Positions 2,615-27,136 are shown, counted from the stretch's first letter. The stretch is 32,000 nucleotides of DNA from Flavobacteriaceae bacterium (GCA_965224465.1 OZ245049.1:1530001-1562000); one strand, 5' to 3'. Numbers and translations are program-made. Notes: generated from the sequence alone by a model not told the origin.

Positions 2615-2662
2615 ATACCAATTACATTTCAAAATAACGTCACTTGGAAATGTATTTGGCAT
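2615..2662 (+). repeat. Collapsed 48-bp copy of the ~160-bp repeat family (R160), with only the two termini joined into a hairpin
   Basis: ATACCAATTACATTTCAAAATAAC joined to GTCACTTGGAAATGTATTTGGCAT. These match the 5' and 3' ends of the full copies, and the arms are inverted repeats of each other. Confidence 0.7.
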
Positions 2663-2985
2663 TATAAATAGAGGTTCGTAATTTTAACAGGGTTCTAGAT
2701 AAAAGACATAAATAAGGACAAATGGACTTAGGACTTTTAGATTCGTAGGTACATAGACTCAAAATAAGGAGGCTTTACGCAGCGGGTGTTGTCTTTTAAA
2801 GTGGCACTGCTTGACCATAATCAGTGGCGTAGACCAACCATAAGAGCCAAAGAAAAATCATCGAAACATTGTACCGAGATTACATTCGTTACAATCAAAA
2901 TCAGCATAAACAAATAAAAACCAACCCCACTTCATTATTTCCTTTTGGGAAACCCGTAGACTGAGGAGGGTTAGCAACTAAAAAC

Positions 2986-3552
2986 ATGAACCACAAGCAC
3001 TTTAAACTATTCAAACCCTACGGGTATATTAGCCAGTTTAAATACGATCTCAAACGTAAAAAAAAGCTCTTAGGCGAACTCTTTGATTTCCCCGAAGGAA
3101 CAATGGCTATTGGACGGTTAGACGAAGACTCCGAAGGCTTATTATTATTGACTACTGACGGCAAAGTAAGTCAGCAAATACGCAGCAGAAAGGTAGAAAA
3201 AGAATATTACGCACAAGTTGATGGATTGATTACAGAAACCGCATTAAATCTACTAAAAAACGGGGTAGAAATAGGTGTAGAAGGTGTAAAATACATGACA
3301 AAACCTTGTAAATCTTTTCAATTAACAGAAACTCCAGAATTACCAAAACGTGCAAAAAAAATACGGGACGAACGCCACGGTCCAACTTCCTGGGTATCTA
3401 TTACTGTTACTGAAGGGAAATTTAGACAAGTTCGTAAAATGACAGCTGCCGTTGGTTTCCCAACCTTACGCCTGGTACGCGTACGCATCCATGATATAAC
3501 TATTAGTGGCATGAATGCAGGGGACGTATCCCCTATTGATTACAATTTATAG
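2986..3552 (+). CDS. Pseudouridine synthase, RsuA/RluE family (no S4 domain)
   Basis: Catalytic-Asp motif GRLDEDSEGLLLLTTDG and downstream KEY...V and GKFRQVRKM motifs typical of the RsuA/RluB/E/F family. 188 aa. Confidence 0.8.
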   Translation: MNHKHFKLFKPYGYISQFKYDLKRKKKLLGELFDFPEGTMAIGRLDEDSEGLLLLTTDGKVSQQIRSRKVEKEYYAQVDGLITETALNLLKNGVEIGVEGVKYMTKPCKSFQLTETPELPKRAKKIRDERHGPTSWVSITVTEGKFRQVRKMTAAVGFPTLRLVRVRIHDITISGMNAGDVSPIDYNL

Positions 3553-3629
3553 AGTTGCAATGTAGTATGGCATTACCAACCGACAGTATAAGAATAAAAG
3601 CAGCTGTAAAAGTTCTTATTTTCAGCTCT

Positions 3630-4283
3630 CTAATCTTTCAATTCTGTCTTAAATAATTTATCCCAAAAAAACGTGTAAAACCCAAAATTCTTATTTTTAA
3701 GCCTGTGATGCGCTTTATGAAATGTATTTGTAGTAAAAACAAACAAAAAGGGTTTATAGAGGTTGCCATTTAAATGTGTGATTACACCATACAGCCAATT
3801 GAAAATTAAAAACAAAATAAAACCGTAAAGATTAAACTGAAACAATACGGTTACCAGAGTTAACAACAGCCCAAAAAACACAGACTCCAAAGGTGACATA
3901 TAGTATAAACTGACACTGTTAAATCTATCCGAATGCTCGTGATGCTTTGAATGAATTTTGTTTAAGACACCAATACTATGAGATAAATAATGTAAAACAT
4001 ACATCAAGAAATCCATCAACAAGAATACACTAACAAACGAAATCCAAACACTTGATTTAGAAAATATTATCAGCCCTTCAGCCCATAACAGGTATCCAGG
4101 TATGGCTATAATAATATTAATACATAAAATAAGAATTGAATCTACTACTTCCTTTTTCAATAGGGTTTCTTGATAATTAAATATCTTATTCCATAACTTA
4201 CTGATCGCAATAGTTAAGCAATATGCAATAACATTTGCTACTATTAGTACTGGGAAAAAAGTAAAAGGATCTTTTAAGTCCAT
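3630..4283 (-). CDS. Fatty acid hydroxylase / sterol desaturase superfamily membrane protein
   Basis: Multi-TM 217-aa ORF with histidine boxes HYLSH, HSKHHEH and HKAHH. Confidence 0.7.
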   Translation of the reverse strand: MDLKDPFTFFPVLIVANVIAYCLTIAISKLWNKIFNYQETLLKKEVVDSILILCINIIIAIPGYLLWAEGLIIFSKSSVWISFVSVFLLMDFLMYVLHYLSHSIGVLNKIHSKHHEHSDRFNSVSLYYMSPLESVFFGLLLTLVTVLFQFNLYGFILFLIFNWLYGVITHLNGNLYKPFLFVFTTNTFHKAHHRLKNKNFGFYTFFWDKLFKTELKD

Positions 4284-4309
4284 ATTATATTCACTGTTTT
4301 AAGACATGA

Positions 4310-5434
4310 GCTGAATTCAAGTCACAAACGCAACTTTTAGTTAAATAATAATTGTTCCATTACAAATATAGGGTTTTGATATTTATGTCTCTTCCTAGGT
4401 CTGTTATTTAATTTTGTTTCTACCTCTTTGATTCTTTGATCTGTTAGGTTTGTAAAGTCACTTCCTTTGGCAAAATATTGTCTAATCAAACCATTTAAAT
4501 TTTCGTTAGATCCTCTTTCCCAAGAGTGATATGGATGCGCAAAAAAGTAATCAATACATAAATTTTCTGCAACCTGCTCATGGCCTGCAAATTCTTTTCC
4601 ATTATCAGCTGTTATAGTATGTAGATAAGGCTTCCAGTCTTCTAATATTTCATTGATAGCTTTAGTGACAACAACTGCTTCTTTAGAGCTTACTTTTTTC
4701 ATTTTAAGCATTCCAGAAGCTCTATCGTTTACGGTAAGTATGGCTTGATTATGGTTTTTACCTATGATTAAATCGACCTCTAAATCTCCAAATCGATTTC
4801 TTTGTTCAACAACTTCAGGGCGTTGTTCTATACTAATACGATTCTTTATAACCCCTCTAGAATCCTTTGATGAGCCACGTTTTCTATATCTCCTTCCCTG
4901 TCTGCGAAGGTGTGTATGTAAATCACCATCATTCCTCTTGTCTTCCCTAATATGCTGATATATACGCTCAATAGACACCGTTTCTTTACCTTGTTTTTTT
5001 AGGACACCAACTACTTGCTCAGGACTATAATCGTCTCGCAATAACAACTCTATTGCTTGTTGAATATCTTCTGTAAAGCGTTTTCTTTTAGGCTTTTCTT
5101 TATGACGTTTAGCATACTTTTTTTGGGCTAATTCATGCTTGTAAACTCCATTTCTTTTGTCTGAATTACGCTTAATCTCTTTGCTAATAACAGACTTGTC
5201 TTTTCCTATAGCAGCTGCTATCTCAACCTGTTTATAACCTTGTTTTAACATGCAACAAATTGTGTATCTTTGCGCTTGGGTGATGTGTTTCATACAACTT
5301 CTTTTTTCGAGATTTGAGACCGTAAGATACATATCCATCAAGACAAGAAAGGTAGGTTTTCCTACTTTTCTGTTTTGAAAATATAACCATCATAGAATCA
5401 AATCGAAAAGTTGCGTTTATTAGTTGAATTTAAG
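4310..5434 (-). mobile_element. IS30-family insertion sequence, copy 1 (1125 bp)
   Basis: Boundaries were set by comparing the three copies. Imperfect terminal inverted repeats CTTAAATTCAACTAATAAACGCAACTTTT and GCTGAATTCAAGTCACAAACGCAACTTTT match at 22 of 29 positions. Flanked by a GA dinucleotide on both sides. Confidence 0.85.
4337..5341 (-). CDS. IS30-family transposase
   Basis: 334 aa with an N-terminal HTH and a DDE core containing the IS30-typical segment RNRFGDLEVDLIIGKNHNQAILTVNDRASG. Identical or 1 aa different from the other two copies. Confidence 0.9.
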   Translation of the reverse strand: MMDMYLTVSNLEKRSCMKHITQAQRYTICCMLKQGYKQVEIAAAIGKDKSVISKEIKRNSDKRNGVYKHELAQKKYAKRHKEKPKRKRFTEDIQQAIELLLRDDYSPEQVVGVLKKQGKETVSIERIYQHIREDKRNDGDLHTHLRRQGRRYRKRGSSKDSRGVIKNRISIEQRPEVVEQRNRFGDLEVDLIIGKNHNQAILTVNDRASGMLKMKKVSSKEAVVVTKAINEILEDWKPYLHTITADNGKEFAGHEQVAENLCIDYFFAHPYHSWERGSNENLNGLIRQYFAKGSDFTNLTDQRIKEVETKLNNRPRKRHKYQNPIFVMEQLLFN

Positions 5435-5462
5435 GAACTATTTATCGAACTTGTATAAATAG

Positions 5463-6730
5463 GGTTCTACCACGAATGTTGTGGAATTAGTATCTTTACC
5501 TCAAAAAGATGTTTTCAACAAAACTGTTTGAGTTACTATTAAATTTAGGAACAGATTGGAAGGTTTGTGATGTAAAAGTTAATTATCTAGATTCAGAAAT
5601 AGACATATTTATAGACTATCTACCAACAAGAGCATCTTGTCCAGACACAGAAGAGTTGTGTAGTATTTATGATCATAGAAGTACTCGTAGATGGCGTCAT
5701 TTAGACACCTTACAATTCAAAACCTACATTAATTGTAAAGTCCCAAGAGTTAAGTCAACTAAAGGCGTTAAAACGATAACGGTACCATGGGCTAGTAATT
5801 TTTATCGTCATACTTACCTATTTGAAAGGCTAACTATAGACTTATTGAAAGCAACAAGAAATCAAACTCAAACGGCTAAACTATTACGTTGTGGCTTTAA
5901 TATTGTAAACCGAATCATACATACTTCTGTAAAAAGAGGGCTTTCTAATAGGTCAGAAAACCAAAGATTTTCTCATCTAAGTATAGATGAAAAAGCTTTC
6001 AAAAAGGGGCATAACTATGTGACTGTAGTTAGTGATCCGAGTACAGGAATTGTAATTGATGTTGCAGAAGGTAGGACTAAAAAAGAGACTAAAATTTTAC
6101 TTGAAAAGATTGTAAATGAGATAAATAGAGATGAAGTAGAGACTGTCTCTATTGACATGTGGAAGGCCTATTTATCGTCAGTAAAAGAAGTTTTTCCAAA
6201 AGCGAAAGTTGTCCATGATCGATTTCACTTAGTAAAGTACTTAAATGATGCTATAGATAAAGTTCGCAGACGTGAAGTGAAAAAAGAAGAAGGTCTTAAA
6301 AATAGTAGATTTGTATTGCTTAAAAATAAAGAAAACTTAACGGATAAACAAAGAGTATTATTTGACAAAATACAAGAAGCAAATTATCAAGCAAGCAAAG
6401 CATGGTTAGCTAAAGAAAATTTTAAAAATATATTTAGAAGTCCATCCTTGAAAGTTGCTTTAAGTCTTTTTATCAAATGGGGAGCAAGTGTTTTGGAAAC
6501 AAAAATTAAAGAAATTATAAAGGTTGCTAGGATGTTTAATAACCATATAGAAGGGGTGTGTAATGCAATGGTTGAGACTGCTTCTAATGCAATGGCAGAA
6601 AGACTAAATGGTAAAATACAAGAAATAAAATCTATTGGTAAAGGCTACAGGACTTTCGTGAATTTTAGAAGTGCAATACTGTTTTTTAATGGAGGTTTAG
6701 ATTTATACCCACACAAATCGTGGTAGAACC
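5463..6730 (+). mobile_element. ISL3-family insertion sequence, copy 1 (1268 bp) with 8-bp target duplication ATAAATAG
   Basis: Inverted ends GGTTCTACCACGAATGTTGTGG and CCACACAAATCGTGGTAGAACC. ATAAATAG occurs at 5455-5462 and 6731-6738. Confidence 0.9.
5509..6726 (+). CDS. ISL3-family transposase
   Basis: 405-aa ORF filling the element, with an N-terminal zinc-finger-like region and a DDE domain. About 97% identical to the 14321-15538 copy. Confidence 0.85.
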   Translation: MFSTKLFELLLNLGTDWKVCDVKVNYLDSEIDIFIDYLPTRASCPDTEELCSIYDHRSTRRWRHLDTLQFKTYINCKVPRVKSTKGVKTITVPWASNFYRHTYLFERLTIDLLKATRNQTQTAKLLRCGFNIVNRIIHTSVKRGLSNRSENQRFSHLSIDEKAFKKGHNYVTVVSDPSTGIVIDVAEGRTKKETKILLEKIVNEINRDEVETVSIDMWKAYLSSVKEVFPKAKVVHDRFHLVKYLNDAIDKVRRREVKKEEGLKNSRFVLLKNKENLTDKQRVLFDKIQEANYQASKAWLAKENFKNIFRSPSLKVALSLFIKWGASVLETKIKEIIKVARMFNNHIEGVCNAMVETASNAMAERLNGKIQEIKSIGKGYRTFVNFRSAILFFNGGLDLYPHKSW

Positions 6731-6973
6731 ATAAATAGTATGATTTATCAAAGCGGTTATTCCTAAATGATTCCCAAAAAGGTCAATAACTCTAGTTACT
6801 TTAAGACTATTAGGTTCAAGTATTTCTTCCCGAATAGCTATGTAAGTGATGATTTTATTTTTTTTTAAAAAACCATACACCTTGTAACTAATAAAAGGAT
6901 TGTTAAACAATCTCCAATTCAAAAAATCTGCACTTCTATTTGTTGTAATTATTGAGTTAACATTTAAATCAAA
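6731..6973 (-). pseudogene. Middle fragment of an IS-disrupted GNAT-like gene
   Basis: Reading frame FDLNVNSIITTNRSADFLNWRLF...LINHTIY continues the 8099-8710 fragment in frame once IS30 copy 2 and one AAA duplication are removed. The ORF-track entry 6686-6997 is a chimera with IS ends. Confidence 0.75.
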
Positions 6974-8098
6974 CTTAAATTCAACTAATAAACGCAACTT
7001 TTCGATTTGATTCTATGATGGTTATATTTTCAAAACAGAAAAGTAGGAAAACCTACCTTTCTTGTCTTGATGGATATGTATCTTACGGTCTCAAATCTCG
7101 AAAAAAGAAGTTGTATGAAACACATCACCCAAGCGCAAAGATACACAATTTGTTGCATGTTAAAACAAGGTTATAAACAGGTTGAGATAGCAGCTGCTAT
7201 AGGAAAAGACAAGTCTGTTATTAGCAAAGAGATTAAGCGTAATTCAGACAAAAGAAATGGAGTTTACAAGCATGAATTAGCCCAAAAAAAGTATGCTAAA
7301 CGTCATAAAGAAAAGCCTAAAAGAAAACGCTTTACAGAAGATATTCAACAAGCAATAGAGTTGTTATTGCGAGACGATTATAGTCCTGAGCAAGTAGTTG
7401 GTGTCCTAAAAAAACAAGGTAAAGAAACGGTGTCTATTGAGCGTATATATCAGCATATTAGGGAAGACAAGAGGAATGATGGTGATTTACATACACACCT
7501 TCGCAGACAGGGAAGGAGATATAGAAAACGTGGCTCATCAAAGGATTCTAGAGGGGTTATAAAGAATCGTATTAGTATAGAACAACGCCCTGAAGTTGTT
7601 GAACAAAGAAATCGATTTGGAGATTTAGAGGTCGATTTAATCATAGGTAAAAACCATAATCAAGCCATACTTACCGTAAATGATAGAGCTTCTGGAATGC
7701 TTAAAATGAAAAAAGTAAGCTCTAAAGAAGCAGTTGTTGTCACTAAAGCTATCAATGAAATATTAGAAGACTGGAAGCCTTATCTACATACTATAACAGC
7801 TGATAATGGAAAAGAATTTGCAGGCCATGAGCAGGTTGCAGAAAATATATGTATTGATTACTTTTTTGCGCATCCATATCACTCTTGGGAAAGAGGATCT
7901 AACGAAAATTTAAATGGTTTGATTAGACAATATTTTGCCAAAGGAAGTGACTTTACAAACCTAACAGATCAAAGAATCAAAGAGGTAGAAACAAAATTAA
8001 ATAACAGACCTAGGAAGAGACATAAATATCAAAACCCTATATTTGTAATGGAACAATTATTATTTAACTAAAAGTTGCGTTTGTGACTTGAATTCAGC
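6974..8098 (+). mobile_element. IS30-family insertion sequence, copy 2 (1125 bp), flanked by AAA/AAA
   Basis: Same ends as copies 1 and 3. AAA occurs at 6971-6973 and 8099-8101, consistent with the 2-3 bp duplications of IS30 elements. Confidence 0.85.
7067..8071 (+). CDS. IS30-family transposase
   Basis: 334 aa, differing from copies 1 and 3 by one residue (AENICIDY versus AENLCIDY). Confidence 0.9.
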   Translation: MMDMYLTVSNLEKRSCMKHITQAQRYTICCMLKQGYKQVEIAAAIGKDKSVISKEIKRNSDKRNGVYKHELAQKKYAKRHKEKPKRKRFTEDIQQAIELLLRDDYSPEQVVGVLKKQGKETVSIERIYQHIREDKRNDGDLHTHLRRQGRRYRKRGSSKDSRGVIKNRISIEQRPEVVEQRNRFGDLEVDLIIGKNHNQAILTVNDRASGMLKMKKVSSKEAVVVTKAINEILEDWKPYLHTITADNGKEFAGHEQVAENICIDYFFAHPYHSWERGSNENLNGLIRQYFAKGSDFTNLTDQRIKEVETKLNNRPRKRHKYQNPIFVMEQLLFN

Positions 8099-8710
8099 AA
8101 AATAAAAATCCTTGAAATTTCCCTTAGTTAACTCAACAATGTCTTCATTATTAGAAATCTCACTTTGCAAATCATGAATCTTAAGAAGTTTTTTGGCTTC
8201 TTCTATATCGTAATCTAGTTGAACAGAAATATCAAAAGCTCTTGAATCAAAAGCATAAATAAATCTATTTAATGTTTTTTTAAAAAAAATATTATACCCT
8301 AATTTTTCATAAAAGGATGGTGCATCAAAAGGCATGCCTATCACTGCGTTTACCTTATTATTATTATTATTATGAATAAAATTTACTATCTTACTATTGA
8401 TTTGTTTACCTCTCCATTCTGGAAGCGTATAAGCATTAACTCCCCAAATTAGAGGTATGATTTTCTGATTTAGTTTTAGCTCATAAAAAAGACCTCCATA
8501 ATGTGATACAATTTCTCCTTCAGGACTAATTGCAATTAAAGAATGACTAAAAGGGTCGGTTTTTCTGTTAAATGAATCAAAATAATATCGTAAGAAACTT
8601 TTATCTTGAAAAACAGTTTGATTACCATATGCTTTAATGAAAAACTTCGTTAAATTTTCAATATCAGCAACCTGAGCTTTTCTAATTAAAACCCCTTCAT
8701 TTTCTTTCAT
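8099..8710 (-). pseudogene. N-terminal 204 codons of an IS-disrupted GNAT-family acetyltransferase-like gene
   Basis: The GNAT-like N-terminus MKENEGVLIRKAQVADIENL... runs through WRGKQINSKIV. The last 12 codons of ORF 8060-8710 (AEFKSQTQLLVK) are encoded by the IS30 end. Confidence 0.8.
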
Positions 8711-8765
8711 GAAATTTATCTTTTAATTTGCATTTCAACACCTTGCCCATAACACCTCTATATCC

Positions 8766-8822
8766 ACAATAACAAACCAAAACTTGACGTTATTTCCGTA
8801 ATAACTACAATAGCGTTGTGCA
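8766..8822 (+). repeat. Possible degenerate 5' portion of an R160 copy
   Basis: ACAATAACAAACCAAAAC...TAGCGTTGTG resembles the copy at 24152 (ACAATTACAAACCAAAATG...TAGCGTTGTT) with similar spacing. It is weakly conserved. Confidence 0.3.
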
Positions 8823-9132
8823 TATTTTTATTTTAAAATCCGCAATATACGGTATACAGCGTTCTTCAAATATACAAAAGACATCCTTTCCCTACACTAA
8901 TCTTTTAATTATTTTCAGTAAAGCCCCCTCGCATTAACCGCTGTTTTTCAGCACCTCAACAAGAGCACTCGTTCTTATCCTAAACGTAGTTTTTTTATAT
9001 TAGATAGAATCGCTGTTTTACGGGGAACATATAGGCGTATTAGTAGTTTTTAGGTGTTTACTAGCTTGTTTAGATTATTTTTTTTGCGTTTTTGGAGGTG
9101 TACAGAGAAGGAATTGGGGTTTTATTGCGGCA

Positions 9133-9270
9133 ACAAATTACAACCCAAAATAACCGATGTAAATAGTTTATCATACGACCTAGGATAGCAAGGCTATCCA
9201 TCCATTCTTCGCCTAGCTATAACAAAAAATAATTCCATTTCTAAACTGGCACTTGAAAATGCATTTGAAT
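9133..9270 (+). repeat. R160 repeat, copy A (internal ~19-nt deletion)
   Basis: ACAAATTACAACCCAAAATAACCGATGTAAATAGTTT...GGCTATCCATCCATTCTTCGCCTAGCTATAACAAAAAATAATTCCATTTCTAAACTGGCACTTGAAAATGCATTTGAAT. Confidence 0.8.
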
Positions 9271-9278
9271 TAGTTGCC

Positions 9279-9452
9279 TTATTTTTTGCCCTTAAATATT
9301 TTAGAAAGGAGTATTATATTGATAAGTAAGGCAGATAAAATAAAAACATCGATGATAGTTTGGGTTCCAAAAATATTATATTGGAGGGTAATGATTGCTA
9401 AAAGCAAAAAAACTATAGAAAATATTAACCCCGTTTTCAGCGTGAAATTCAT
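9279..9452 (-). CDS. Possible small (57-aa) two-helix membrane protein
   Basis: Hand translation of the minus strand gives MNFTLKTGLIFSIVFLLLAIITLQYNIFGTQTIIDVFILSALLINIILLSKIFKGKK. This is below the 60-aa cutoff of the track. The plus-strand ORF 9274-9468 looks like its shadow. Confidence 0.3.
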   Translation of the reverse strand: MNFTLKTGLIFSIVFLLLAIITLQYNIFGTQTIIDVFILSALLINIILLSKIFKGKK

Positions 9453-9587
9453 GTTTTATTTATTTTAAATCAAAATATTTGCCTTCGATGAGACTTCATA
9501 CTGAAGGTTCTTGCTAAAGATATGAATTTTTGATGAAGCAACAAATACGCATTACGTTTAGCTTGTTGCATTTAGTTCTAATTTACC

Positions 9588-9749
9588 ACCACTTACAATT
9601 CAAAATAACCGGTATAAACAGTTAATTATACGTTCTAGCGTTGTTAAAAAACAGAACAATAGCTAACGGTTATCCATCCATTTTTAGCCTAGCATAAACA
9701 AAAGATAATTCCAATTCTAAACTGGCACTTGAAAATGCATTTGGTATAA
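9588..9749 (+). repeat. R160 repeat, copy B (full length)
   Basis: ACCACTTACAATTCAAAATAACCGGTATAAACAG...CTAGCGTTGTTAAAAAACAGAAC...CCATTTTTAGCCTAGCATAAAC...TTCTAAACTGGCACTTGAAAATGCATTTGGTATAA. It ends about 20 nt from the stop of the minus-strand gene at 9768. Confidence 0.85.
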
Positions 9750-9767
9750 GAGATTAGTTGCACTACG

Positions 9768-11135: not shown

Positions 11136-11140
11136 TTGTG

Positions 11141-11731
11141 TTATTTTTTATTATTTAAGATTCTTTTAGCTTTTAACATTAATGTAATAAAAACATATAA
11201 TATAATTGTGAAAATTATCATCACAGGGATAAACCAATACCCTAAAACTTCTTGATAATCAGAATTCCCTTTAACCAATCCTAGCGCTATAAATTTACCA
11301 TCTTTGAAATACATCCCTACATTGCTATTAAATAATTTAGCAAAAATAAAAAAGACAAAAGAGCCTAAGGATAAGTAAAGCAGAAAGAAAATGATATAAC
11401 TCACACCGTTTGTGATATTTAGCAAGAGTGCTTTTAAAATCTGAAATGGATTGAAAGATTTTGTAGCTTTTTCCAGCAACTTATCCGCTATCAATGGCTT
11501 TAGGACTTCTTCAGGTGACCCTAATTTATCTATAGCGTTTAAAAGAACATCTATTTCTTTTTTAAATTTATTGTTCTGTAAATGTTCATATATATGGCTA
11601 TTAAATTCCATTAACACCTCTTGTCTGTCTGAATCAAGAATAGGTTTTAATACATTTCTTAAGCTATTAAAGTAGTTATCATAGACACGTTGGGCATTTT
11701 TATCTTCAAATTCTATTTTTTTAAATTTCAT
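11141..11731 (-). CDS. PadR-associated membrane protein (DUF1700/HAAS-like)
   Basis: The soluble N-terminal domain resembles DUF1700 and is followed by TM helices. It overlaps the upstream PadR gene by 11 nt. Confidence 0.55.
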   Translation of the reverse strand: MKFKKIEFEDKNAQRVYDNYFNSLRNVLKPILDSDRQEVLMEFNSHIYEHLQNNKFKKEIDVLLNAIDKLGSPEEVLKPLIADKLLEKATKSFNPFQILKALLLNITNGVSYIIFFLLYLSLGSFVFFIFAKLFNSNVGMYFKDGKFIALGLVKGNSDYQEVLGYWFIPVMIIFTIILYVFITLMLKAKRILNNKK

Positions 11732-12065: not shown

Positions 12066-12101
12066 AATACATTGTTTTAATTAATACATAGTATAGCAAT
12101 G

Positions 12102-12146
12102 CAAACATACAACAATACATTGTTAAACAATGTATTGTTGTATGTT
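12102..12146 (-). promoter_or_regulatory. PadR promoter (-7 TAtgTTTG, -33 TTG at 18-nt spacing) embedded in a 43-bp perfect palindrome (putative PadR operator)
   Basis: Positions 12104-12146 pair perfectly around position 12125, giving 21-bp arms (AACATACAACAATACATTGTT / AACAATGTATTGTTGTATGTT). The minus-strand boxes lie at 12102-12109 and 12128-12130. An extra half-site ATACATTGTT sits at 12068-12077. Confidence 0.6.
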
Positions 12147-12298
12147 AATTTCAATAATCATTAAGTAACCTACTGTAAATTATAGCTTTACGTAATAAAT
12201 AAGATATTAAAATAGAAGTCGAGAAGTGTTTTTTAACGGGGTATAACGTCTCGAATAGGATAAATACGAGAATAAAAAGGAATTAGTTTTCTTTATTA

Positions 12299-15681: not shown

Positions 15682-15727
15682 ACCAACTACATTTCCAAGT
15701 GAAGGTTTAGAAATGGGATTATTTTTT
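15682..15727 (-). repeat. R160 repeat, partial copy J (3' module only, inverted)
   Basis: ACCAACTACATTTCCAAGTGAAGGTTTAGAAATGGGATTATTTTTT is the reverse complement of the consensus 3' module AAAAAATAATCCYATTTCTAAACCGTCACTTGGAAATGTATTTGGT. Confidence 0.7.
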
Positions 15728-20009: not shown

Positions 20010-20050
20010 CACCGCAAAGAGAGACAAACTAAAGAGATAAACTAGGACTA

Positions 20051-20210
20051 CTTATAATTACAATCCAAAATGACCGATATAAATAGTTTGTTCTATGCTC
20101 TATCGTTGTTAAAAAATAGAACGATAGCGAAGGCTATCCTTAGAATTTCCGCCTAGCTAGAACAAAAAATAATCCTATTTCTAAACCGTCACTTGGAAAC
20201 CCATTTCATA
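20051..20210 (+). repeat. R160 repeat, copy C (full length)
   Basis: TTATAATTACAATCCAAAATGACCGATATAAATAGTTTG...CGTTGTTAAAAAATAGAACGATAGCGAAGGCTATCCTTAGAATTTCCGCCTAGCTAGAACAAAAAATAATCCTATTTCTAAACCGTCACTTGGAAAC. Confidence 0.85.
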
Positions 20211-20226
20211 TTACTAGATATAAAAC

Positions 20227-20261
20227 AAAAAAAAAGCAACTCAAAAGAGTTGCTTTTTTTT
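20227..20261 (-). terminator. Terminator of tRNA-Lys copy 1 (bidirectional in form)
   Basis: GCAACTC / GAGTTGC stem with an AAAA loop, flanked by an A-run and a T-run. Confidence 0.7.
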
Positions 20262-20262
20262 G

Positions 20263-20335
20263 TGACCTGGCTGGGGCTCGAACCCAGGACCACCTCCTTA
20301 AAAGGGAGGTGCTCTACCAACTGAGCTACCAGGTC
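20263..20335 (-). tRNA. tRNA-Lys (anticodon UUU), copy 1
   Basis: The minus strand reads GACCTGG TA GCTC AGTTGGTA GAGC A CCTCC CTTTTAA GGAGG TGGTC CTGGG TTCGAGC CCCAG CCAGGTC A. This is a 73-nt cloverleaf with no encoded CCA. Confidence 0.9.
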
Positions 20336-20352
20336 TAATGCCTTAGCGGGTG

Positions 20353-20382
20353 CAAATATAAAGACTTATTTCGATTTCACAA
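20353..20382 (-). promoter_or_regulatory. tRNA-Lys copy 1 promoter (TTG-N19-TAtaTTTG)
   Basis: Plus-strand CAAATATA at 20353-20360 and CAA at 20380-20382. The -7 box lies 17 nt upstream of the mature 5' end. Confidence 0.65.
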
Positions 20383-20592
20383 GAAAAACATAGTAAGAAA
20401 TTTTACGATTTTTTAGGAGCAGAAACTTATAAAACATCACAGACTTATTTTCAGTCTCTTAGACCCAAAAACAAATCTATAACCGACGTAAAATAATCGG
20501 TTAAAAAAAAAGAGAACCCCATAAAACTACACCTCATGGACAAAACATATTAAGGAATATTGTGTTTTTTATTCTTCTCGAATTTAGGTAGC

Positions 20593-20754
20593 ATTCAATT
20601 ACAATCCAAAACAACAGCTATAAATAGTTTATTATAGGTCCTAGCGTTGTTGAAAAATGGAAGAATAACTAAAGCTATCCTTCCATTTTTTGCTTCGCTA
20701 AAACAAAAAAAATAATTACATTTCTAAACAGTCACTTGAAAAATGTACTTGGTA
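20593..20754 (+). repeat. R160 repeat, copy D (full length, diverged)
   Basis: ATTCAATTACAATCCAAAACAACAGCTATAAATAGTTT...CTAGCGTTGTTGAAAAATGG...GCTATCCTTCCATTTTTTGCTTCGCTAAAAC...TTTCTAAACAGTCACTTGAAAAATGTACTTGGTA. Confidence 0.8.
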
Positions 20755-20775
20755 AAAACAGTGGTTTTTTTACAT

Positions 20776-20807
20776 AAAAAAAACAACTCATATTGAGTTG
20801 CTTTTTT
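20776..20807 (-). terminator. Terminator of tRNA-Lys copy 2
   Basis: CAACTCA / TGAGTTG stem with a TAT loop, flanked by A- and T-runs. Confidence 0.65.
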
Positions 20808-20808
20808 G

Positions 20809-20881
20809 TGACCTGGCTGGGGCTCGAACCCAGGACCACCTCCTTAAAAGGGAGGTGCTCTACCAACTGAGCTACCAGGTC
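20809..20881 (-). tRNA. tRNA-Lys (anticodon UUU), copy 2
   Basis: Sequence identical to copy 1. Confidence 0.9.
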
Positions 20882-20898
20882 TAGTGCCTTAGCGGGTG

Positions 20899-20928
20899 CA
20901 AATATAAAGACTTTTTTGATTCTCACAA
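20899..20928 (-). promoter_or_regulatory. tRNA-Lys copy 2 promoter (TTG-N19-TAtaTTTG)
   Basis: CAAATATA at 20899-20906 and CAA at 20926-20928. Same architecture as copy 1. Confidence 0.65.
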
Positions 20929-21115
20929 GGAAAATACAACTGAAAATTCAACTTTTTTTAACCCTTAAAAAACCAATATATATGGCACGCTTACTGTCAG
21001 CATATTGCGCAACTAAGCCCTTCAAAATAACAGCAAGTATATTTAAACTATTTACACTCTTAACAACGCCCATATCCCCTTCGCTACTTTTTATTAATAG
21101 CTCATAAAACTTAGT

Positions 21116-21232
21116 ACACCAATTACAATCCAAAATAACCGATATAAATAGTTTGTTTTACCTTCTAGCATTGTTTAAAAACAGAACGATAGCCTAGCCA
21201 TCCTTCCATTTTCCACCTAGTTAGAACAAAAC
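21116..21232 (+). repeat. R160 repeat, copy E (3' module missing)
   Basis: ACACCAATTACAATCCAAAATAACCGATATAAATAGTTTG...CTAGCATTGTTTAAAAACAGAACGATAGCCTAGCCATCCTTCCATTTTCCACCTAGTTAGAAC. Confidence 0.8.
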
Positions 21233-21274
21233 ACCTTTAACGTTTCTACCTTTATGGACTCCTTATACCTATGC

Positions 21275-21799
21275 TTATTTTTTAAAAATAACTGGATGGT
21301 AATTTTCAATAAAGTGAGAAACCACTTTTGAACTCACAAAATCTGGGTATGACATAAGTAGTAATTGCAACGGAGAAGCATCTTTGATAACTGGAGGTAT
21401 TTCATAATAATGCTGATTTAACTTAAAACCAATTCTCTCATAAAACTGTATCCTTCTTTTGTTCATACTAGAAACAGGAAGCTCCACCTCCAATAGAATA
21501 TCTGTATCATTCCCAGCTATAAACTTAGTAAGAATTAACTTCCCTAAACCTCGATTTCTATACTCAATTGACGTAGCAAAATGTTCGATATACTTACAGG
21601 TATCAAAATCCCACCATAAAATAAACCCTATAAATTGATTTTTATCAATTAAAACATCAAAATGATAATTGTCTTTTTTAAAAATACATTCTTGATCATC
21701 CAACAACCTTCGTTCCTCAATAGGAAAAGCATCCTCATAAAGCCGCCAAGCATTATAAAAATAAGTATCTGAAATATGTTTAAGTCTTATTTGTCTCAT
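21275..21799 (-). CDS. GNAT-family N-acetyltransferase
   Basis: 174 aa with the acetyl-CoA motif YRNRGLGKLIL and a conserved AFPIEERR N-terminal segment. Confidence 0.8.
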   Translation of the reverse strand: MRQIRLKHISDTYFYNAWRLYEDAFPIEERRLLDDQECIFKKDNYHFDVLIDKNQFIGFILWWDFDTCKYIEHFATSIEYRNRGLGKLILTKFIAGNDTDILLEVELPVSSMNKRRIQFYERIGFKLNQHYYEIPPVIKDASPLQLLLMSYPDFVSSKVVSHFIENYHPVIFKK

Positions 21800-21821
21800 T
21801 TATTTATTGCTTGACATATTA

Positions 21822-22147
21822 ATACCAATTACATCCCCAAATAACCGATATAAATAGTTTATTTTACGTTCTAGCGTTGTTAAAAAATAGAATGATAGCT
21901 ATGGCTATCCTTAGATTTTCCGCCTAGCTATAACACCAATTAAAATCCAAAATGACCTATATAAATAGTTTATTTTACGTTTTAGCGTTGTTAAAAAATA
22001 GAACGATAGCTATGGCTATCCTTAGATTTTCCGCCTAGCTATAACAAAAAATAATCCTATTTCTAAACCGTCACTTGGAAATTTAATTGGTATAACAAAA
22101 AATAATTCCATTTCTAAACCATCACTTGGAAATGTATTTGGTATAAC
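21822..22147 (+). repeat. Compound R160 locus: host copy F (21822-21934 plus 22097-22147) interrupted by complete copy G (21935-22096)
   Basis: F reads normally up to GCCTAGCTATAAC. A full element then follows (ACCAATTAAAATCCAAAATGACC...GGAAATTTAATTGGTATAAC), and F resumes with AAAAAATAATTCCATTTCTAAACCATCACTTGGAAATGTATTTGGTATAAC. Confidence 0.8.
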
Positions 22148-22346
22148 ACGATTAACGAAATATTAAATCAACAGCCTCGCCTCAAAGGAACAGGTATACT
22201 TCCGAAAGGATGTTTTTATTCCGAAACTGATTCCAAGAGAATAAAACCCTAAAAAAAGGATAAAATCACTGTCTTAGCACAACTAAAGTAAAGGTACTAA
22301 ATAAAAACAGTTTGTAAAACTATAAACCAATACGCCTTCTCAAAAC

Positions 22347-22382
22347 AAAAAAAAAGCAACTCTAAATGAGTTGCTTTTTTTT
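22347..22382 (-). terminator. Terminator of tRNA-Lys copy 3
   Basis: GCAACTC / GAGTTGC stem with a TAAAT loop, flanked by A- and T-runs. Confidence 0.7.
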
Positions 22383-22383
22383 G

Positions 22384-22456
22384 TGACCTGGCTGGGGCTC
22401 GAACCCAGGACCACCTCCTTAAAAGGGAGGTGCTCTACCAACTGAGCTACCAGGTC
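22384..22456 (-). tRNA. tRNA-Lys (anticodon UUU), copy 3
   Basis: Sequence identical to copies 1 and 2. Confidence 0.9.
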
Positions 22457-22473
22457 TAATGCCTTAGCGGGTG

Positions 22474-22503
22474 CAAATATAAGGACTTATTTCGATTACA
22501 CAA
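22474..22503 (-). promoter_or_regulatory. tRNA-Lys copy 3 promoter (TTG-N19-TAtaTTTG)
   Basis: CAAATATA at 22474-22481 and CAA at 22501-22503. It starts 12 nt after the stop of the ABC ATPase gene. Confidence 0.65.
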
Positions 22504-22514
22504 GGCTTTTAAAA

Positions 22515-23279
22515 TTAATTTTCATTTAAATATGCCTCTCTTACTTTCTTGAATAAATTGGACGAATACACAAAATCCACAATCGCTTCATTCTCAGTTT
22601 TAAACATCTCTTTATTGGTTCCTTCCCATGCCAAGATACCATTTTTTAGAAAAATTATCTTTTCGCCAATTTCCATTACAGAATTCATATCATGAGAATT
22701 TATGACGGTAATAATTTCGTATTCCTTAGTAATTTCCTGAATCAAATTATCAATAACAATGGCTGTCTGAGGATCCAATCCTGAATTAGGTTCATCACAA
22801 AATAAATATTTAGGATTCATTACAATTGCCCTTGCAATAGCCACACGTTTTTGCATCCCTCCAGAGAGTTCTGTAGGATATTTAGTACTGGCATTCGGTA
22901 AGTTTACACGCTCTAGGACTTCATTTACGCGGTATAACATTTCTTTAGGACTATCATTGGTAAACATTTTTAGAGGAAACATCACATTTTCTTCCACCGT
23001 CAAAGAGTCGTACAAAGCACTTCCTTGAAAAACCATACCTATCTCTTTTCTGAGCTGCCTACGTGATTTTATGGTCATATCTGTATGTTTACGACCATCA
23101 AAAGAAATCACCCCACCTTCAGGGACATGTAAACCAACAAGGCACTTTAAAAACACCGTTTTTCCAGAACCAGACTGACCAATAATCATATTGGTTTTTC
23201 CTTTTTCAAAAATGGTAGAAATACCTTTCAGTACCTCCGTATCATTAAACTTTTTAATTAAATTCGAAACTTCTATCAT
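22515..23279 (-). CDS. ABC transporter ATP-binding protein, MlaF-like
   Basis: Walker A GQSGSGKT, signature LSGGMQKR and Walker B LFCDEP. Adjacent to an MlaE-type permease. Confidence 0.85.
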   Translation of the reverse strand: MIEVSNLIKKFNDTEVLKGISTIFEKGKTNMIIGQSGSGKTVFLKCLVGLHVPEGGVISFDGRKHTDMTIKSRRQLRKEIGMVFQGSALYDSLTVEENVMFPLKMFTNDSPKEMLYRVNEVLERVNLPNASTKYPTELSGGMQKRVAIARAIVMNPKYLFCDEPNSGLDPQTAIVIDNLIQEITKEYEIITVINSHDMNSVMEIGEKIIFLKNGILAWEGTNKEMFKTENEAIVDFVYSSNLFKKVREAYLNEN

Positions 23280-24151: not shown

Positions 24152-24277
24152 ATAACAATTACAAACCAAAATGATCGATATAAATAGTGTGTTTTACGTT
24201 CTAGCGTTGTTAAAAAAGAAAAAGACAGCAAAGGCTATCCTTCCATTTTCTGCCTAGCTATAACAAAAAATAACTCC
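24152..24277 (+). repeat. R160 repeat, copy H (3' module missing)
   Basis: ATAACAATTACAAACCAAAATGATCGATATAAATAGTG...CTAGCGTTGTTAAAAAAG...GGCTATCCTTCCATTTTCTGCCTAGCTATAACAAAAAATAACTCC. Confidence 0.8.
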
Positions 24278-24442
24278 TCTGGTTGAATACACAACAAGAA
24301 ATAATTACCAACTACAAAGCTAAAATGCAATACTAATACTGTTAAAATAATGCCTTTTACTTTTTATTTTTGAATAAACTACTTACTTTTGCACCGTACA
24401 ATAATTGTTTTAACTGATCTAAATCAATTCATTACAAAACCT

Positions 24443-24981: not shown

Positions 24982-26802
24982 ATGATCAAAAAACATTCAT
25001 TTCACATTCCAGTAATGGGAATTGGATTTACCATTGATACTCCATTAAAGGTGGCTCATTTAGGTATTGACTCGGTAATCTCCTTAGTCGATGATATCCT
25101 ACTTGAAAAACTCAGAAAGGTGTACTCTGATAAATTTGAAGTTCCATACACTGAAATTAGTGATAAGATCGAAGATTTTAGAGCGAAGCGCATTACTTCT
25201 TATCTAAATCTCATCAATGAATTGGTTGAAAATAAATTTGAGATTCTCAAAGCCAGTACATTGCAAAAAGGTCATGAGTTTAAAGAATATTTAAACTTAC
25301 TACCTGATACTTCTAAACTAAAAGAAGACTTAACTGTTTCTACAGAAAAATACTTAACCGACGCCAGTAATTGGTTAAAAAACAATTTATCTTTAGGTAG
25401 TATTGATGTCAACATCATGACTAAAATTGACAAGGATAACTTTAAAAATGGTGAACAATTACCTATAGAATTTAACGATGCACATGCAGCTCTTAGAGGC
25501 TTTGCAAACAGTGATTTATCAAGCTCGTTAATCCTATCTGCGGGAATGAACCCTCGTTTATATGGCTATATGGAGAATTTTAAAGATTTCTTCCCTGACG
25601 AAAACGGGGCGATCAAAAAGAAAATTGTACTGAAGGTAAGTGATTACAGATCTGCATTGATTCAAGGAAAATTTTTAGCCAAAAAAGGACTTTGGGTCTC
25701 TGAATTCAGAATAGAATCTGGATTAAACTGTGGAGGACATGCTTTTGCAACTGACGGTTTTTTAATGGGACCTATTCTTGCTGAATTTAAAGAAAACAGA
25801 GAAACACTTATTCAATCTGTTCATGAAATTTTAGTTTCGGCTTTAGAAAGCAAAGGAAAAACAGTACCTAAAACTCCAATTGCACTTAAAATTACAGCAC
25901 AAGGAGGCGTTGGTACTTCAGAAGAACATGAGTTTTTACTAGGGCATTACCAGCTAAACTCTATAGGATGGGGATCTCCTTTTTTATTAGTCCCAGAAGC
26001 AACGGTTGTGGATCCTATATCAATGGACAAATTAAAAACAGCCAAAGAAAAAGACTTGTATTTAAGTGATATTTCTCCACTTGGCGTCCCTTTTAATAGT
26101 CTGGAAGGAAACACAAAGGACATCGAAAAATTGGCAAAAGCAGCAAAAGGAAGACCCGGAAGCTCCTGTCCAAAAAAATATTTAGCCTTAGCAAAAGATG
26201 CTGACGGAAAAAATATATGTACTGCATCTCGTAAATTTCAACATTTGAAATTAAAAGCATTGGATGCCGAAATAATATCGGAAGAAGATCGATTAAAAAA
26301 ATACGAAGACATTATTGTAAAATCGTGTATTTGTGTTGGACTCGGAACTTCTGCGATGCTAGCAAACGAATTGGACACCAAAAGAGAAGGAGAAGGTGTT
26401 TCCATATGCCCAGGACCAAACATGGCTTATTTTTCAAAAACATTGAGTTTAAAAGAAATGATAGGACATATTTACGGAAAACAAAATGTAATAGAACGCA
26501 CTGACAGACCAAATATGTTTATCAAAGAGTTGGATTTGTACCTTGATTATTTAAAAAATAGAATTGCTGAAACCAATGCTTCTATGAATAAAAAACAAGA
26601 AAAGTACTTGACTAATTTTTCTAAAAATCTATTCGCAGGTATCCATTATTATGACCAGATGTTTAAATCGCTTAAAACACAATTTAAAGATTCTAAATTA
26701 CTTATATTACACCAATTAGAGCTAAGTAAACAAACACTAGAAGTATTAGAACTAAAAATTGACAAATTAAAAATGCAAGCCATTTCGGTAAAAGCATCTT
26801 AA
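24982..26802 (+). CDS. Uncharacterised 606-aa protein (family not recognised)
   Basis: Long uninterrupted ORF starting 5 nt after the hydrolase stop. Motifs GLNCGGHAF and AQGGVGTSEE loosely recall FMN TIM-barrel (nitronate monooxygenase/FabK-like) signatures. The C-terminal half is Cys-rich. Confidence 0.6.
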   Translation: MIKKHSFHIPVMGIGFTIDTPLKVAHLGIDSVISLVDDILLEKLRKVYSDKFEVPYTEISDKIEDFRAKRITSYLNLINELVENKFEILKASTLQKGHEFKEYLNLLPDTSKLKEDLTVSTEKYLTDASNWLKNNLSLGSIDVNIMTKIDKDNFKNGEQLPIEFNDAHAALRGFANSDLSSSLILSAGMNPRLYGYMENFKDFFPDENGAIKKKIVLKVSDYRSALIQGKFLAKKGLWVSEFRIESGLNCGGHAFATDGFLMGPILAEFKENRETLIQSVHEILVSALESKGKTVPKTPIALKITAQGGVGTSEEHEFLLGHYQLNSIGWGSPFLLVPEATVVDPISMDKLKTAKEKDLYLSDISPLGVPFNSLEGNTKDIEKLAKAAKGRPGSSCPKKYLALAKDADGKNICTASRKFQHLKLKALDAEIISEEDRLKKYEDIIVKSCICVGLGTSAMLANELDTKREGEGVSICPGPNMAYFSKTLSLKEMIGHIYGKQNVIERTDRPNMFIKELDLYLDYLKNRIAETNASMNKKQEKYLTNFSKNLFAGIHYYDQMFKSLKTQFKDSKLLILHQLELSKQTLEVLELKIDKLKMQAISVKAS

Positions 26803-26823
26803 AATTATACACCCTAATGATTG

Positions 26824-26865
26824 AAGCCAATATAAAAATAATACAATTTTTATATTGGCTTTTTT
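26824..26865 (+). terminator. Rho-independent terminator of the 606-aa gene
   Basis: 16-bp perfect stem AAGCCAATATAAAAAT / ATTTTTATATTGGCTT with a 6-nt loop, followed by TTTT. Confidence 0.75.
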
Positions 26866-26947
26866 ATACGTAAAAATAAGAGCATCAACCTCGCCACAAA
26901 AACACGAAGTATACTTCGATAGAATATATTAAATGAGGGTAATTCGC

Positions 26948-26975
26948 AGAGAGAGAGAGAGAGAGAGAGAGAGAG
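26948..26975. repeat. (AG)14 dinucleotide microsatellite
   Basis: Counted directly: 14 uninterrupted AG units, abutting the end of R160 copy I. Confidence 0.95.
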
Positions 26976-27136
26976 TTATACCAAATACATTTCCTACTCA
27001 CATTTTAGAAATGGAATTATTTTTAATTTTAGCTAGGCGGAAAACCTAAGAATAACCTTAGCTACTGTTCTGTTTTTCAAGAACAATAGAACGTAAAATA
27101 AACTATTAATATCGGTCATTTGGGATTGTAATAAGT
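26976..27136 (-). repeat. R160 repeat, copy I (full length, inverted)
   Basis: TTATACCAAATACATTTCC...TTTTAGAAATGGAATTATTTTTAATTTTAGCTAGGCGGAAAACCTAAG...GAACGTAAAATAAACTATTAATATCGGTCATTTGGGATTGTAATAAG is the reverse complement of the consensus. Confidence 0.85.

What the first reader, a model, noticed from the sequence alone, without database searches (positions are those of the whole stretch)
2615..27136. Dense family of ~160-bp intergenic repeats with terminal inverted repeats (R160): MITE/Correia-like element or structured RNA
Eleven recognisable copies, plus one or two degenerate ones, occur in 32 kb and total about 1.4 kb. They lie at 2615-2662 (collapsed), 9133-9270, 9588-9749, 15682-15727 (partial, inverted), 20051-20210, 20593-20754, 21116-21232, 21822-22147 (two nested copies), 24152-24277 and 26976-27136 (inverted). 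The approximate consensus is ATACCAATTACAATCCAAAATRACCGATATAAATAGTTT..ACGTTCTAGCGTTGTTAAAAAATAGAACGATAGC-loop-GGCTATCCTTMSATTTTCCGCCTAGCTATAACAAAAAATAATYCYATTTCTAAACCGTCACTTGGAAATGTATTTGGTATAAC. The termini are inverted repeats (ATACCAATTACATYYCC versus the reverse complement of GGAAATGTATTTGGTAT). Two internal hairpins recur: CGTTCTA...TAGAACG and GATAGC-loop-GCTATC. In the second, the loop varies between copies (TATG, GAAG, AAG) while the stem is mostly kept. Every copy is intergenic. None resembles the IS30 or ISL3 ends in this window, so any autonomous partner lies elsewhere. In all six cases where a copy sits just 3' of a gene or tRNA (copies A to E and I), the element is antisense to that gene as I oriented it. 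This hints at strand-specific selection, such as a 3'-UTR or terminator role. The sample is small and most local genes are on the minus strand, so the bias is only suggestive.
Basis: seen in the sequence. Interest (0 to 1): 0.75.

Follow-up and report, generated by a model that had tools for sequence, protein, structure and literature searches.

The report
159-bp MITE family in a flavobacterium
The ~160-bp repeats are real. They are decayed copies of a small non-coding "hitch-hiker" transposon (a MITE) that inserts at TAA/TTA and duplicates those three bases, which makes it a new family of a well-known kind of element rather than a new kind of RNA or system.

Summary
Eleven recognisable copies or fragments lie within a few bases of the stated coordinates (nhmmer E 1e-52 to 2e-4), all intergenic, with no Rfam match.

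The element is a MITE. Its canonical length is exactly 159 bp in 7 copies. The terminal inverted repeats are YACCAATTAMA...TKTAATTGGTA. The whole element is an imperfect palindrome that folds into one long hairpin.

- **Target-site duplication:** eight copies are flanked by identical 3-bp direct repeats, TAA/TAA six times and TTA/TTA twice.
- **Nested insertion:** the nested pair measures 321 bp = 2x159+3, which fixes the duplication at 3 bp.
- **Distribution:** full copies occur at non-orthologous sites in three Flavobacteriaceae MAGs (NORP129/150/167). Syntenic loci of five relatives lack them.
- **Age:** copies are 74-94% identical, truncated, deleted or locally duplicated, so the family is old.

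No autonomous partner was found in the DNA I could read. The local IS30 and ISL3 ends do not match. The TWA duplication points to an IS5/PIF-Harbinger-type transposase, but that is inference only.

Evidence for RNA-level selection is weak: modest compensatory changes and a G·U over A·C excess of 17:7.

Verdict: new member of a known kind, of modest interest.

The parts
2613..2664 (+). Copy A: 46-bp internally deleted mini-copy (2616-2661, both termini only) flanked by TTA (2613-2615) and TTA (2662-2664)
9131..9267 (+). Copy B: lacks about 20 nt of the left arm and has a degenerate 3' end. It shares 9 nt of 3' flank (ATTAGTTGC) with C, so it is probably a local duplicate of C
9587..9746 (+). 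Copy C: full length (160 bp), old, with a decayed left end and TSD. It ends about 20 bp downstream of the stop of the minus-strand beta-lactamase-family gene
15682..15727 (-). Copy D: 46-bp 3'-terminal fragment, 81 bp downstream of rpmE (L31). It sits at the right edge of an IS-rich island that relatives lack
20052..20210 (+). Copy E: full length (159 bp) with degenerate termini, between the DUF389 gene stop and the terminator of tRNA-Lys 20262-20335
20593..20754 (+). Copy F: full length (162 bp), diverged, downstream of the terminator of tRNA-Lys 20808-20881
21117..21231 (+). Copy G: 5' three-quarters only, 42 bp downstream of the stop of the GNAT gene 21275-21799(-)
21823..22143 (+). Copy H1 (outer): 21823-21933 + 22096-22143 = 159 bp, flanked by TAA 21820-21822 and TAA 22144-22146, and interrupted by H2
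   Evidence: Total 321 bp = 2x159+3
21934..22092 (+). Copy H2 (inner): intact 159-bp copy inserted at the TAA inside H1. That TAA is duplicated (21931-21933 and 22093-22095)
24153..24274 (+). Copy I: 5' three-quarters only, preceded by TAA, in the divergent region between mlaE and the 195-aa ORF
26979..27137 (-). Copy J: full length (159 bp), inverted, flanked by TTA 26976-26978 and TTA 27138-27140 on the + strand (TAA/TAA in element orientation). It abuts a (GA)13 run at 26949-26974

Best explanation
R160 is a family of non-autonomous DNA transposons (MITEs).

**Anatomy.** A full copy is 159 bp and has no coding capacity. It begins YACCAATTAMA and ends TKTAATTGGTA (11-bp terminal inverted repeats, imperfectly extended to about 25 bp). 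Overall it is an imperfect palindrome whose two halves pair into one long hairpin, with GATAGC-loop-GCTATC at the tip.

**Insertion.** It inserts at the trinucleotide TAA or TTA and duplicates it, giving a 3-bp TWA target-site duplication.

**Mobilisation (inferred, not shown).** A DDE transposase encoded elsewhere binds the two identical ends and moves the element in trans. The TWA duplication is the signature of the IS5/PIF-Harbinger superfamily, so a small IS5-type IS is the most likely driver.

**History.** The copies in this window are old. They have diverged, lost ends, suffered internal deletions, nested into each other and been copied by local duplication. They survive only between genes.

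**Effects on neighbours.** Several copies sit 0-45 bp after a stop codon. In two MAG copies the duplicated TAA is itself the stop codon. These copies are therefore probably transcribed into 3' UTRs as a long hairpin. Any effect on termination or mRNA stability would be a by-product and is untested.
For: **The family is real**
- nhmmer E-values run from 1e-52 to 2e-4 for 11 window copies.
- The test pattern matches 7 times against 0 in shuffles.

**Uniform length and matching flanks**
- Seven copies are exactly 159 bp.
- Identical 3-bp flanks occur in 8 copies: TAA/TAA in H1, H2, J, L1, L3 and L4, and TTA/TTA in A and L6.
- The chance of equal flanking triplets is 0.023 per copy.
- The two flanks change together, so they are a duplication and not part of the element.

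**Nested insertion**
- H spans 321 bp = 159+3+159.
- Removing H2 plus one TAA restores a gap-free 159-bp H1.

**TSDs decay with age**
- TSDs are intact in the copies closest to the consensus (87-94% pairwise identity), and also in the older J and the mini-copy A.
- They are lost in the older copies C, E and F and the variants L2 and L5.

**Distribution**
- Full-length copies lie at six unrelated sites in three MAGs.
- Syntenic loci of relatives (L007/L008, L009, L010, L014, L015) carry none.
- For example, the spacer from the DUF389 stop to the tRNA terminator is about 26-30 bp in L007 and L014 and 217 bp in the window, which holds copy E.

**Other support**
- Deletion derivatives A, B, D, G and I are typical of transposon decay.
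- Intact copies fold into one hairpin on both strands (z -2.1 to -8.1).
- The 3-bp TAA/TTA duplication with an IS5-like transposase is documented for PIF/Harbinger and Tourist elements (PMC2213677).
Against: - No autonomous element with these ends was found in the window, in 15 loci (~180 kb) or in the plasmid and phage collections, so the transposase assignment is inference only.
- The termini do not start with the GG/GA typical of many IS5-family ends (own knowledge). They also lack the plant PIF G(N)5GTT motif (PMC2213677).
- No exact empty site could be aligned, because the nearest relatives are only 75-88% identical in DNA and their intergenic regions are unalignable.
- At site A the relative L015 has a weakly similar 41-nt segment before the same TTATAAATA flank, so that site is ambiguous.
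- No two copies are more than 94% identical, so there is no sign of current activity.
- Compensatory changes exceed shuffles, and G·U exceeds A·C 17:7. This hints at some constraint on the hairpin beyond plain selfish spread.
Confidence: 0.85

Rival explanations
1. R160 is primarily a selected structured RNA or cis-regulatory module, such as a 3'-UTR stabiliser, terminator, RNase III target or small RNA gene. On this view its spread and conservation reflect function rather than transposition.
For: - Intact copies fold into a ~160-nt hairpin with z -2.1 to -8.1.
- 92.8% of cells are paired, and 6 pairs show double changes against 2.5 in shuffles (7/500).
- Derived G·U exceeds A·C in 17 versus 7 columns, favouring the reverse-complement strand (p=0.06).
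- The apical hairpin plus T-run is flagged as terminator-like in 5 copies on the minus strand and 2 on the plus strand.
- Many copies lie 0-45 bp after stop codons.
- H2 (window) and L1 (NORP129) are 94% identical although the genomes are only 75-88% identical in coding DNA.
Against: - Orientation relative to the nearest upstream gene is 6 sense to 6 antisense.
- There is no Rfam hit, even at E<=10.
- The RNAalifold covariation term is about 0.
- Half of the double changes come from one divergent copy (J) or one subfamily change in the terminal repeat. A transposase that reads both ends would explain that equally well.
- The strand difference in folding energy largely vanishes in z-scores.
- Many copies are truncated or collapsed, and relatives do without them at the same loci.
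- The TSDs and the nested insertion need transposition in any case.
Confidence: 0.1
2. The repeats are products of local segmental or tandem duplication (for example of the tRNA-Lys module) and are not mobile.
For: - B and C share 9 nt of flank beyond the element.
- E and F lie at the same spacing (541-546 bp) as two tRNA-Lys units.
Against: - Copies occur at unrelated loci on both strands and in other genomes.
- The boundaries are sharp and flanked by TWA duplications.
- There is a nested insertion.
- The relatives L007 and L014 have the tRNA-Lys repeats without any R160.
Confidence: 0.03
3. The repeats are attC-like recombination sites of an integron-type cassette array (VCR-like), or REPIN/PATE hairpins mobilised by a Y1 (RAYT/IS200) transposase.
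For: - They are imperfect palindromes in a dense local cluster.
- Small GNAT and beta-lactamase-family genes lie between copies.
- Hairpin stability differs between the strands.
Against: - Neither class makes target-site duplications, yet 8 copies have TWA duplications.
- Copies sit among syntenic housekeeping genes (tRNA-Lys, mlaEF, rpmE, PDH) and occur singly after ligA, a peroxiredoxin gene and others in the MAGs.
- J is inverted.
- No integrase or Y1 transposase domain appears in any of the 26 window ORFs scanned.
- At 159 bp the element exceeds the usual attC size range (own knowledge).
Confidence: 0.02

Closest known systems
Tourist-type MITEs of the PIF/Harbinger superfamily (transposase related to bacterial IS5)
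   Same: A small non-coding element with short terminal inverted repeats, a foldback shape, and a 3-bp TAA/TTA target-site duplication (PMC2213677). It prefers gene-proximal, AT-rich sites.
   Different: Those elements are eukaryotic. R160 is in a Lutibacter-like flavobacterium. Its ends (YACCAATTAMA) lack the plant G(N)5GTT motif, and no PIF/IS5-type transposase partner was found.
Bacterial IS5-family ISs with short duplications (IS1031, ISL2 and IS427 groups) and their MITEs, e.g. Porphyromonas gingivalis BrickBuilt/MITEPgRS
   Same: These give 2-4-bp duplications, often at TNA/TA-containing targets (own knowledge of ISfinder groups). IS5-type MITEs are documented in the phylum Bacteroidota (PMC4596501).
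   Different: The P. gingivalis MITEs have GAGACC... ends and internal tandem repeats. R160 has unrelated ends and is a simple palindrome. A match of the R160 ends to any catalogued IS could not be tested because ISfinder was not available.
Correia elements (CREE/NEMIS) of Neisseria
   Same: About 100-155 bp, with terminal inverted repeats and a whole-element hairpin. They are abundant between genes and often co-transcribed with neighbours.
   Different: Correia elements duplicate TA, have 26-bp repeats of unrelated sequence, and are restricted to Neisseria (own knowledge). R160 duplicates TWA and is not related in sequence.

Membership tests
MITE (non-autonomous DNA transposon) | Small size, no coding capacity | tested here: met
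   The canonical length is 159 bp in 7 copies. No ORF of 80 aa or more overlaps any copy.
MITE (non-autonomous DNA transposon) | Terminal inverted repeats | tested here: met
   YACCAATTAMA / TKTAATTGGTA, perfect over 11 bp in H2, L6 and L3.
MITE (non-autonomous DNA transposon) | Target-site duplication of fixed length | tested here: met
   Eight copies have identical 3-bp flanks, TAA six times and TTA twice. The nested pair is 321 bp = 2x159+3.
MITE (non-autonomous DNA transposon) | Multiple dispersed copies, with insertion polymorphism between genomes | tested here: met
   There are 11 copies in the window and 6 at unrelated sites in 3 MAGs. Syntenic loci of relatives have none. Base-exact empty sites could not be aligned.
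MITE (non-autonomous DNA transposon) | An autonomous element with the same ends | tested here: inconclusive
   None was found in the window or in ~180 kb of loci. IS30 and ISL3 ends differ. The source genome could not be fetched.
IS5 / PIF-Harbinger-derived MITE | 3-bp TWA (TAA/TTA) target-site duplication | tested here: met
   The criterion comes from PMC2213677.
IS5 / PIF-Harbinger-derived MITE | Ends matching an IS5-family IS, or a DDE IS5-type transposase partner | not testable with these tools
   No ISfinder and no access to the rest of the source genome. The plant G(N)5GTT end motif is absent.
Correia element | TA duplication and the 26-bp Correia terminal repeat | tested here: not met
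   The flanks are TAA/TTA triplets. A TA model fails for the TTA-flanked copies and for the five copies that start CACC.
Any Rfam family (including Flavo-1 and Bacteroidota sRNAs) | Covariance-model match at or near the gathering score | tested here: not met
   At gathering threshold only three tRNA genes are hit. At E<=10 over 19900-22600, only weak chance-level matches (16-22 bits, far below the gathering scores) to unrelated miRNA, snoRNA and Plasmodium RNA families fall within copies, and there is no Flavo-1 match.
Integron attC array | No TSD, a uniformly oriented array of cassettes, and an integrase or CALIN context | tested here: not met
   TSDs are present. J is inverted. Copies lie among syntenic housekeeping genes and singly in MAGs. 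No integrase domain was found.
REPIN / IS200-IS605 PATE | No terminal inverted repeats or TSD, and an associated Y1 transposase (RAYT/TnpA) | tested here: not met
   Terminal repeats and TSDs are present. No Y1_Tnp domain was found in the window ORFs.

The most novel reading that the evidence does not exclude
The 159-nt hairpin is under strand-specific structural selection and has been co-opted. It could act as an RNA-level module (a 3'-UTR stabiliser, terminator or RNase III substrate, or its own transcript). Alternatively, the element may need a single-strand hairpin of one particular strand to transpose. Either would explain three observations: compensatory changes above shuffles, the 17:7 excess of G·U over A·C, and 94% identity between copies in genomes whose coding DNA is only ~75-88% identical.
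Probability: 0.12. Interest if true: 0.55.

Novelty: new member of a known kind. Interest (0 to 1): 0.3.

Why it matters
**What it adds.** I found no Flavobacteriaceae MITE in the searchable papers. This is a documented family in a Lutibacter-like lineage that was otherwise seen only in three Flavobacteriaceae MAGs named NORP. From my own knowledge, the NORP names are those of North Pond subseafloor-aquifer MAGs.

**The TWA signature.** The strict TWA duplication links the family to the IS5/PIF-Harbinger insertion chemistry best known from plant Tourist elements. It also shows how a TAA-targeting element can land exactly on stop codons without damaging genes, as after ligA in one MAG.

**Practical value.**
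- Annotators should mask these elements so they are not called as sRNAs or terminators.
- The copies mark variable intergenic sites and an IS-rich island.
- The family gives a ready handle (its ends plus TWA) for finding the still-unknown transposase.

It does not open a new class of system.

Tried and rejected
**Database and collection searches**
- Rfam at gathering threshold and at E<=10 found nothing beyond tRNAs and chance-level sub-threshold matches.
- Two metagenome scans (3' and 5' patterns) and one viral scan gave 0 hits.
- blastn against plasmids and phages gave only chance 26-37-nt matches.
The family is therefore rare or restricted, and the window's own genome is not in that collection.

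**Attempts to reach the source genome**
- Four look-ups failed: the 606-aa protein, the ABC ATPase, the E2 protein (100% match on a 5.24-Mb contig) and the IS30 transposase are not on record.

**Search for an autonomous partner**
- Pairing terminal-repeat matches in all held DNA found none.

**Exact empty sites**
- These failed for sites E, I, J and A because the relatives' intergenic DNA is too diverged.

**Models considered and rejected**
- TA (IS630/Correia-type) duplication and 5-7-bp duplication models were rejected against the flanks.
- No exact match to the Bacteroidota promoter motif TAnnTTTG was seen when I read the consensus on both strands by eye.
- The apparent strand asymmetry in folding energy is largely base composition, because the z-scores are similar.
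- The literature searches found no described Lutibacter or Flavobacteriaceae MITE.


Full report

Yes. The repeat finder recovers the family as several overlapping direct and inverted families. E-values run from 1e-52 to 2e-4, and nothing else appears in the window even with filters off and E<=10. A 31-nt degenerate pattern from the 3' part matches 7 times against 0 in 100 dinucleotide shuffles. All copies lie between ORFs or tRNA genes. The summed length is about 1.46 kb.

Rfam gives only the three tRNA-Lys genes at gathering threshold. At E<=10 over 19900-22600, only weak matches far below the gathering scores, to unrelated miRNA, snoRNA and Plasmodium RNA families, fall within copies.

**2. 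Where does the window come from?**

GC content is 33%. MlaE and the PDH E2 protein find their best relatives in 'MAG: Flavobacteriaceae bacterium' records and, at about 87% and 73%, in Lutibacter species. An E2 protein 100% identical to the window's exists on a 5.24-Mb contig, but that genome could not be fetched or named.

**3. Anatomy**

After aligning window and MAG copies and locating the termini, seven copies are exactly 159 bp: E, H2, J, L1, L3, L4 and L6. The ends are YACCAATTAMA and TKTAATTGGTA.

nhmmer also hits each intact copy on the opposite strand over its full length. Folding shows why. Intact copies (H2, L1, L3, L4, L6) form a single hairpin of about 160 nt on either strand, with z -2.1 to -8.1.

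In the consensus structure those bases pair with the other arm.

**4. Target-site duplication, the decisive result**

| Flanking triplets | Copies |
|---|---|
| TAA / TAA | H1, H2, J, L1, L3, L4 |
| TTA / TTA | A, L6 |
| Decayed | C, E, F, L2, L5 |

- The chance that two flanking triplets agree is 0.023 per copy at this composition.
- The two sides change together (TAA with TAA, TTA with TTA) and form a direct repeat, not an inverted one. They are therefore a duplication of the target and not part of the element.
- The nested pair proves the length. H spans 321 bp = 159+3+159. H2 sits at the TAA inside H1, and removing H2 plus one TAA restores a gap-free 159-bp H1.
- Intact duplications are found in the copies closest to the consensus, and also in the older J and the mini-copy A. 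They are lost in the old copies C, E and F and in the variant copies L2 and L5.
- A TA model fails for the TTA-flanked copies and for the five copies that begin CACC.

**5. Distribution**

There are six loci, each with a full copy at a site unrelated to the window:
- directly after ligA;
- directly after a GATase-domain gene;
- a few bases after an aminotransferase fusion gene;
- 144 bp after a peroxiredoxin gene;
- two other intergenic sites, L002 and L005.

In L003 and L001 the left TAA of the duplication is the stop codon of the upstream gene.

Syntenic loci carry no R160. These come from two NORP129 contigs (L007/L008 and L014), a JGI contig (L009), MAG JAESRX01 (L015) and Lutibacter maritimus (L010). 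For instance, the spacer between the DUF389 stop and the tRNA-Lys terminator is about 26-30 bp in L007 and L014, but 217 bp in the window, where it holds copy E.

Exact empty sites could not be aligned, because these relatives are only 75-88% identical and their intergenic DNA has diverged. Site A is ambiguous in L015.

**6. Age and history**

- Pairwise identity is 74-94%, so there is no sign of recent activity. The three IS30 copies in the window, by contrast, are 99-100% identical.
- B and C share 9 nt of flank, so they are a local duplicate pair.
- A keeps only the two ends. B has an internal deletion. D, G and I are truncated.
- H2 (window) and L1 (NORP129) are 94% identical, more than the coding DNA of the two genomes. 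This points to a conserved source copy, horizontal spread or constraint.

**7. Partner transposase**

IS30 and ISL3 ends in the window are unrelated. No pair of R160-type ends encloses a larger element in any held DNA. Plasmid and phage collections give nothing.

A 3-bp TAA/TTA duplication is the hallmark of PIF/Harbinger-Tourist elements, whose transposase is IS5-like (PMC2213677). IS5-type MITEs are known in Bacteroidota (PMC4596501). From my own knowledge of ISfinder groups, the IS1031, ISL2 and IS427 groups of IS5 make 2-4-bp duplications. The IS5-type driver is therefore an inference, not a result.

**8. Is it an RNA?**

*Evidence for some constraint*
- 92.8% of cells pair, and 6 of 50 pairs have double changes against 2.5 in shuffles (7/500).
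- Derived G·U exceeds A·C in 17 versus 7 columns (p=0.06). Symmetric mismatch positions add one consensus U·G and one C·A.
- The apical hairpin plus T-run scores as a weak terminator-like site in 5 copies on the minus strand and 2 on the plus strand.

*Evidence against*
- The RNAalifold covariation term is about 0.
- The clearest double change lies in the terminal repeat of one subfamily. A transposase reading both ends would explain that equally well.
- Folding z-scores are similar on both strands.
- Orientation relative to the nearest upstream gene is 6 sense (D, E, L1, L3, L4, L6) to 6 antisense (C, F, G, J, L2, L5).

**9. Other readings rejected**

Integron attC arrays, REPINs and IS200/IS605 PATEs make no target duplications and need an integrase or a Y1 transposase. 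None is present. The copies also sit among syntenic housekeeping genes and occur singly in the MAGs. Pure segmental duplication explains B/C only.

**10. Verdict**

R160 is a real, previously undescribed MITE family: 159 bp, 11-bp terminal repeats, a full-length foldback and a TWA duplication. It occurs in a Lutibacter-like flavobacterium and related uncultured genomes. It is a new member of a known kind and of modest interest. The partner transposase and any RNA-level side effects are still open.

Noticed in passing
window 3563-15748: A ~12-kb island lies between the pseudouridine synthase gene and rpmE. Those two genes are adjacent in the relatives L014 and L015. The island holds three IS30 and two ISL3 copies, a fatty-acid hydroxylase, a GNAT, a beta-lactamase-family gene, a HAAS/PadR pair, and R160 copies B, C and D. 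The truncated copy D sits about 20 bp from the right boundary.
   Followed up: partly
window 4294-5437, 6974-8098, 12296-13439; 5463-6740, 14275-15556: Three IS30-family copies are 99-100% identical and two ISL3-family copies are 98-100% identical. They look recently active, in contrast with the old R160 copies.
   Followed up: partly
window 13427-13485 and 15545-15603: A 59-bp repeat (86% identical...ATTCAGACACAACTAT...) lies immediately outside the right end of an IS30 copy and of an ISL3 copy. It may be a shared target or another small repeat family.
   Followed up: no
window 21117-22146: The GNAT acetyltransferase gene 21275-21799(-) is bracketed by R160 copies G and H in the same orientation. 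It is absent from the same tRNA-Lys spacer in L007 and L014. It may be MITE-associated gene gain, but the outer flanks (GTA versus TAA) do not form a duplication.
   Followed up: partly
window 20262-20335, 20808-20881, 22383-22456: Three identical tRNA-Lys(UUU) genes each have their own A-tract/T-tract terminator hairpin and a conserved upstream region. L007 has three such units and L014 has two.
   Followed up: partly
window 26949-26974: A (GA)13 microsatellite directly abuts the TSD of copy J.
   Followed up: no
L014 about 16743-16768 and 17278-17305: In the relative, a different ~27-nt hairpin repeat (GTAAAGACGYAATRCATTGCGTCT) precedes each tRNA-Lys terminator. This is where the window carries R160 copies.
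   Followed up: no
L002 4790-4958 and L005 4827-5022: These two MAG copies share a ~23-nt insertion (CCAAATCAGGTTGAGCACAATTT) at the same position. L005 has a further ~12-nt insertion. They form a longer subfamily of 176-193 bp.
   Followed up: no
L008 (NVSY01000030) and L014 (NVSY01000032): The MAG GCA_002401385.1 (NORP129) contains two different contigs with the same mlaEF/DUF389 synteny at different sequence identity to the window. The bin seems to mix two related populations.
   Followed up: no
window 24303-24313: Just 3' of the truncated copy I there is a further end-like motif (TACCAACTACA, the same variant as in copy D). It may be the remnant of another copy.
   Followed up: no
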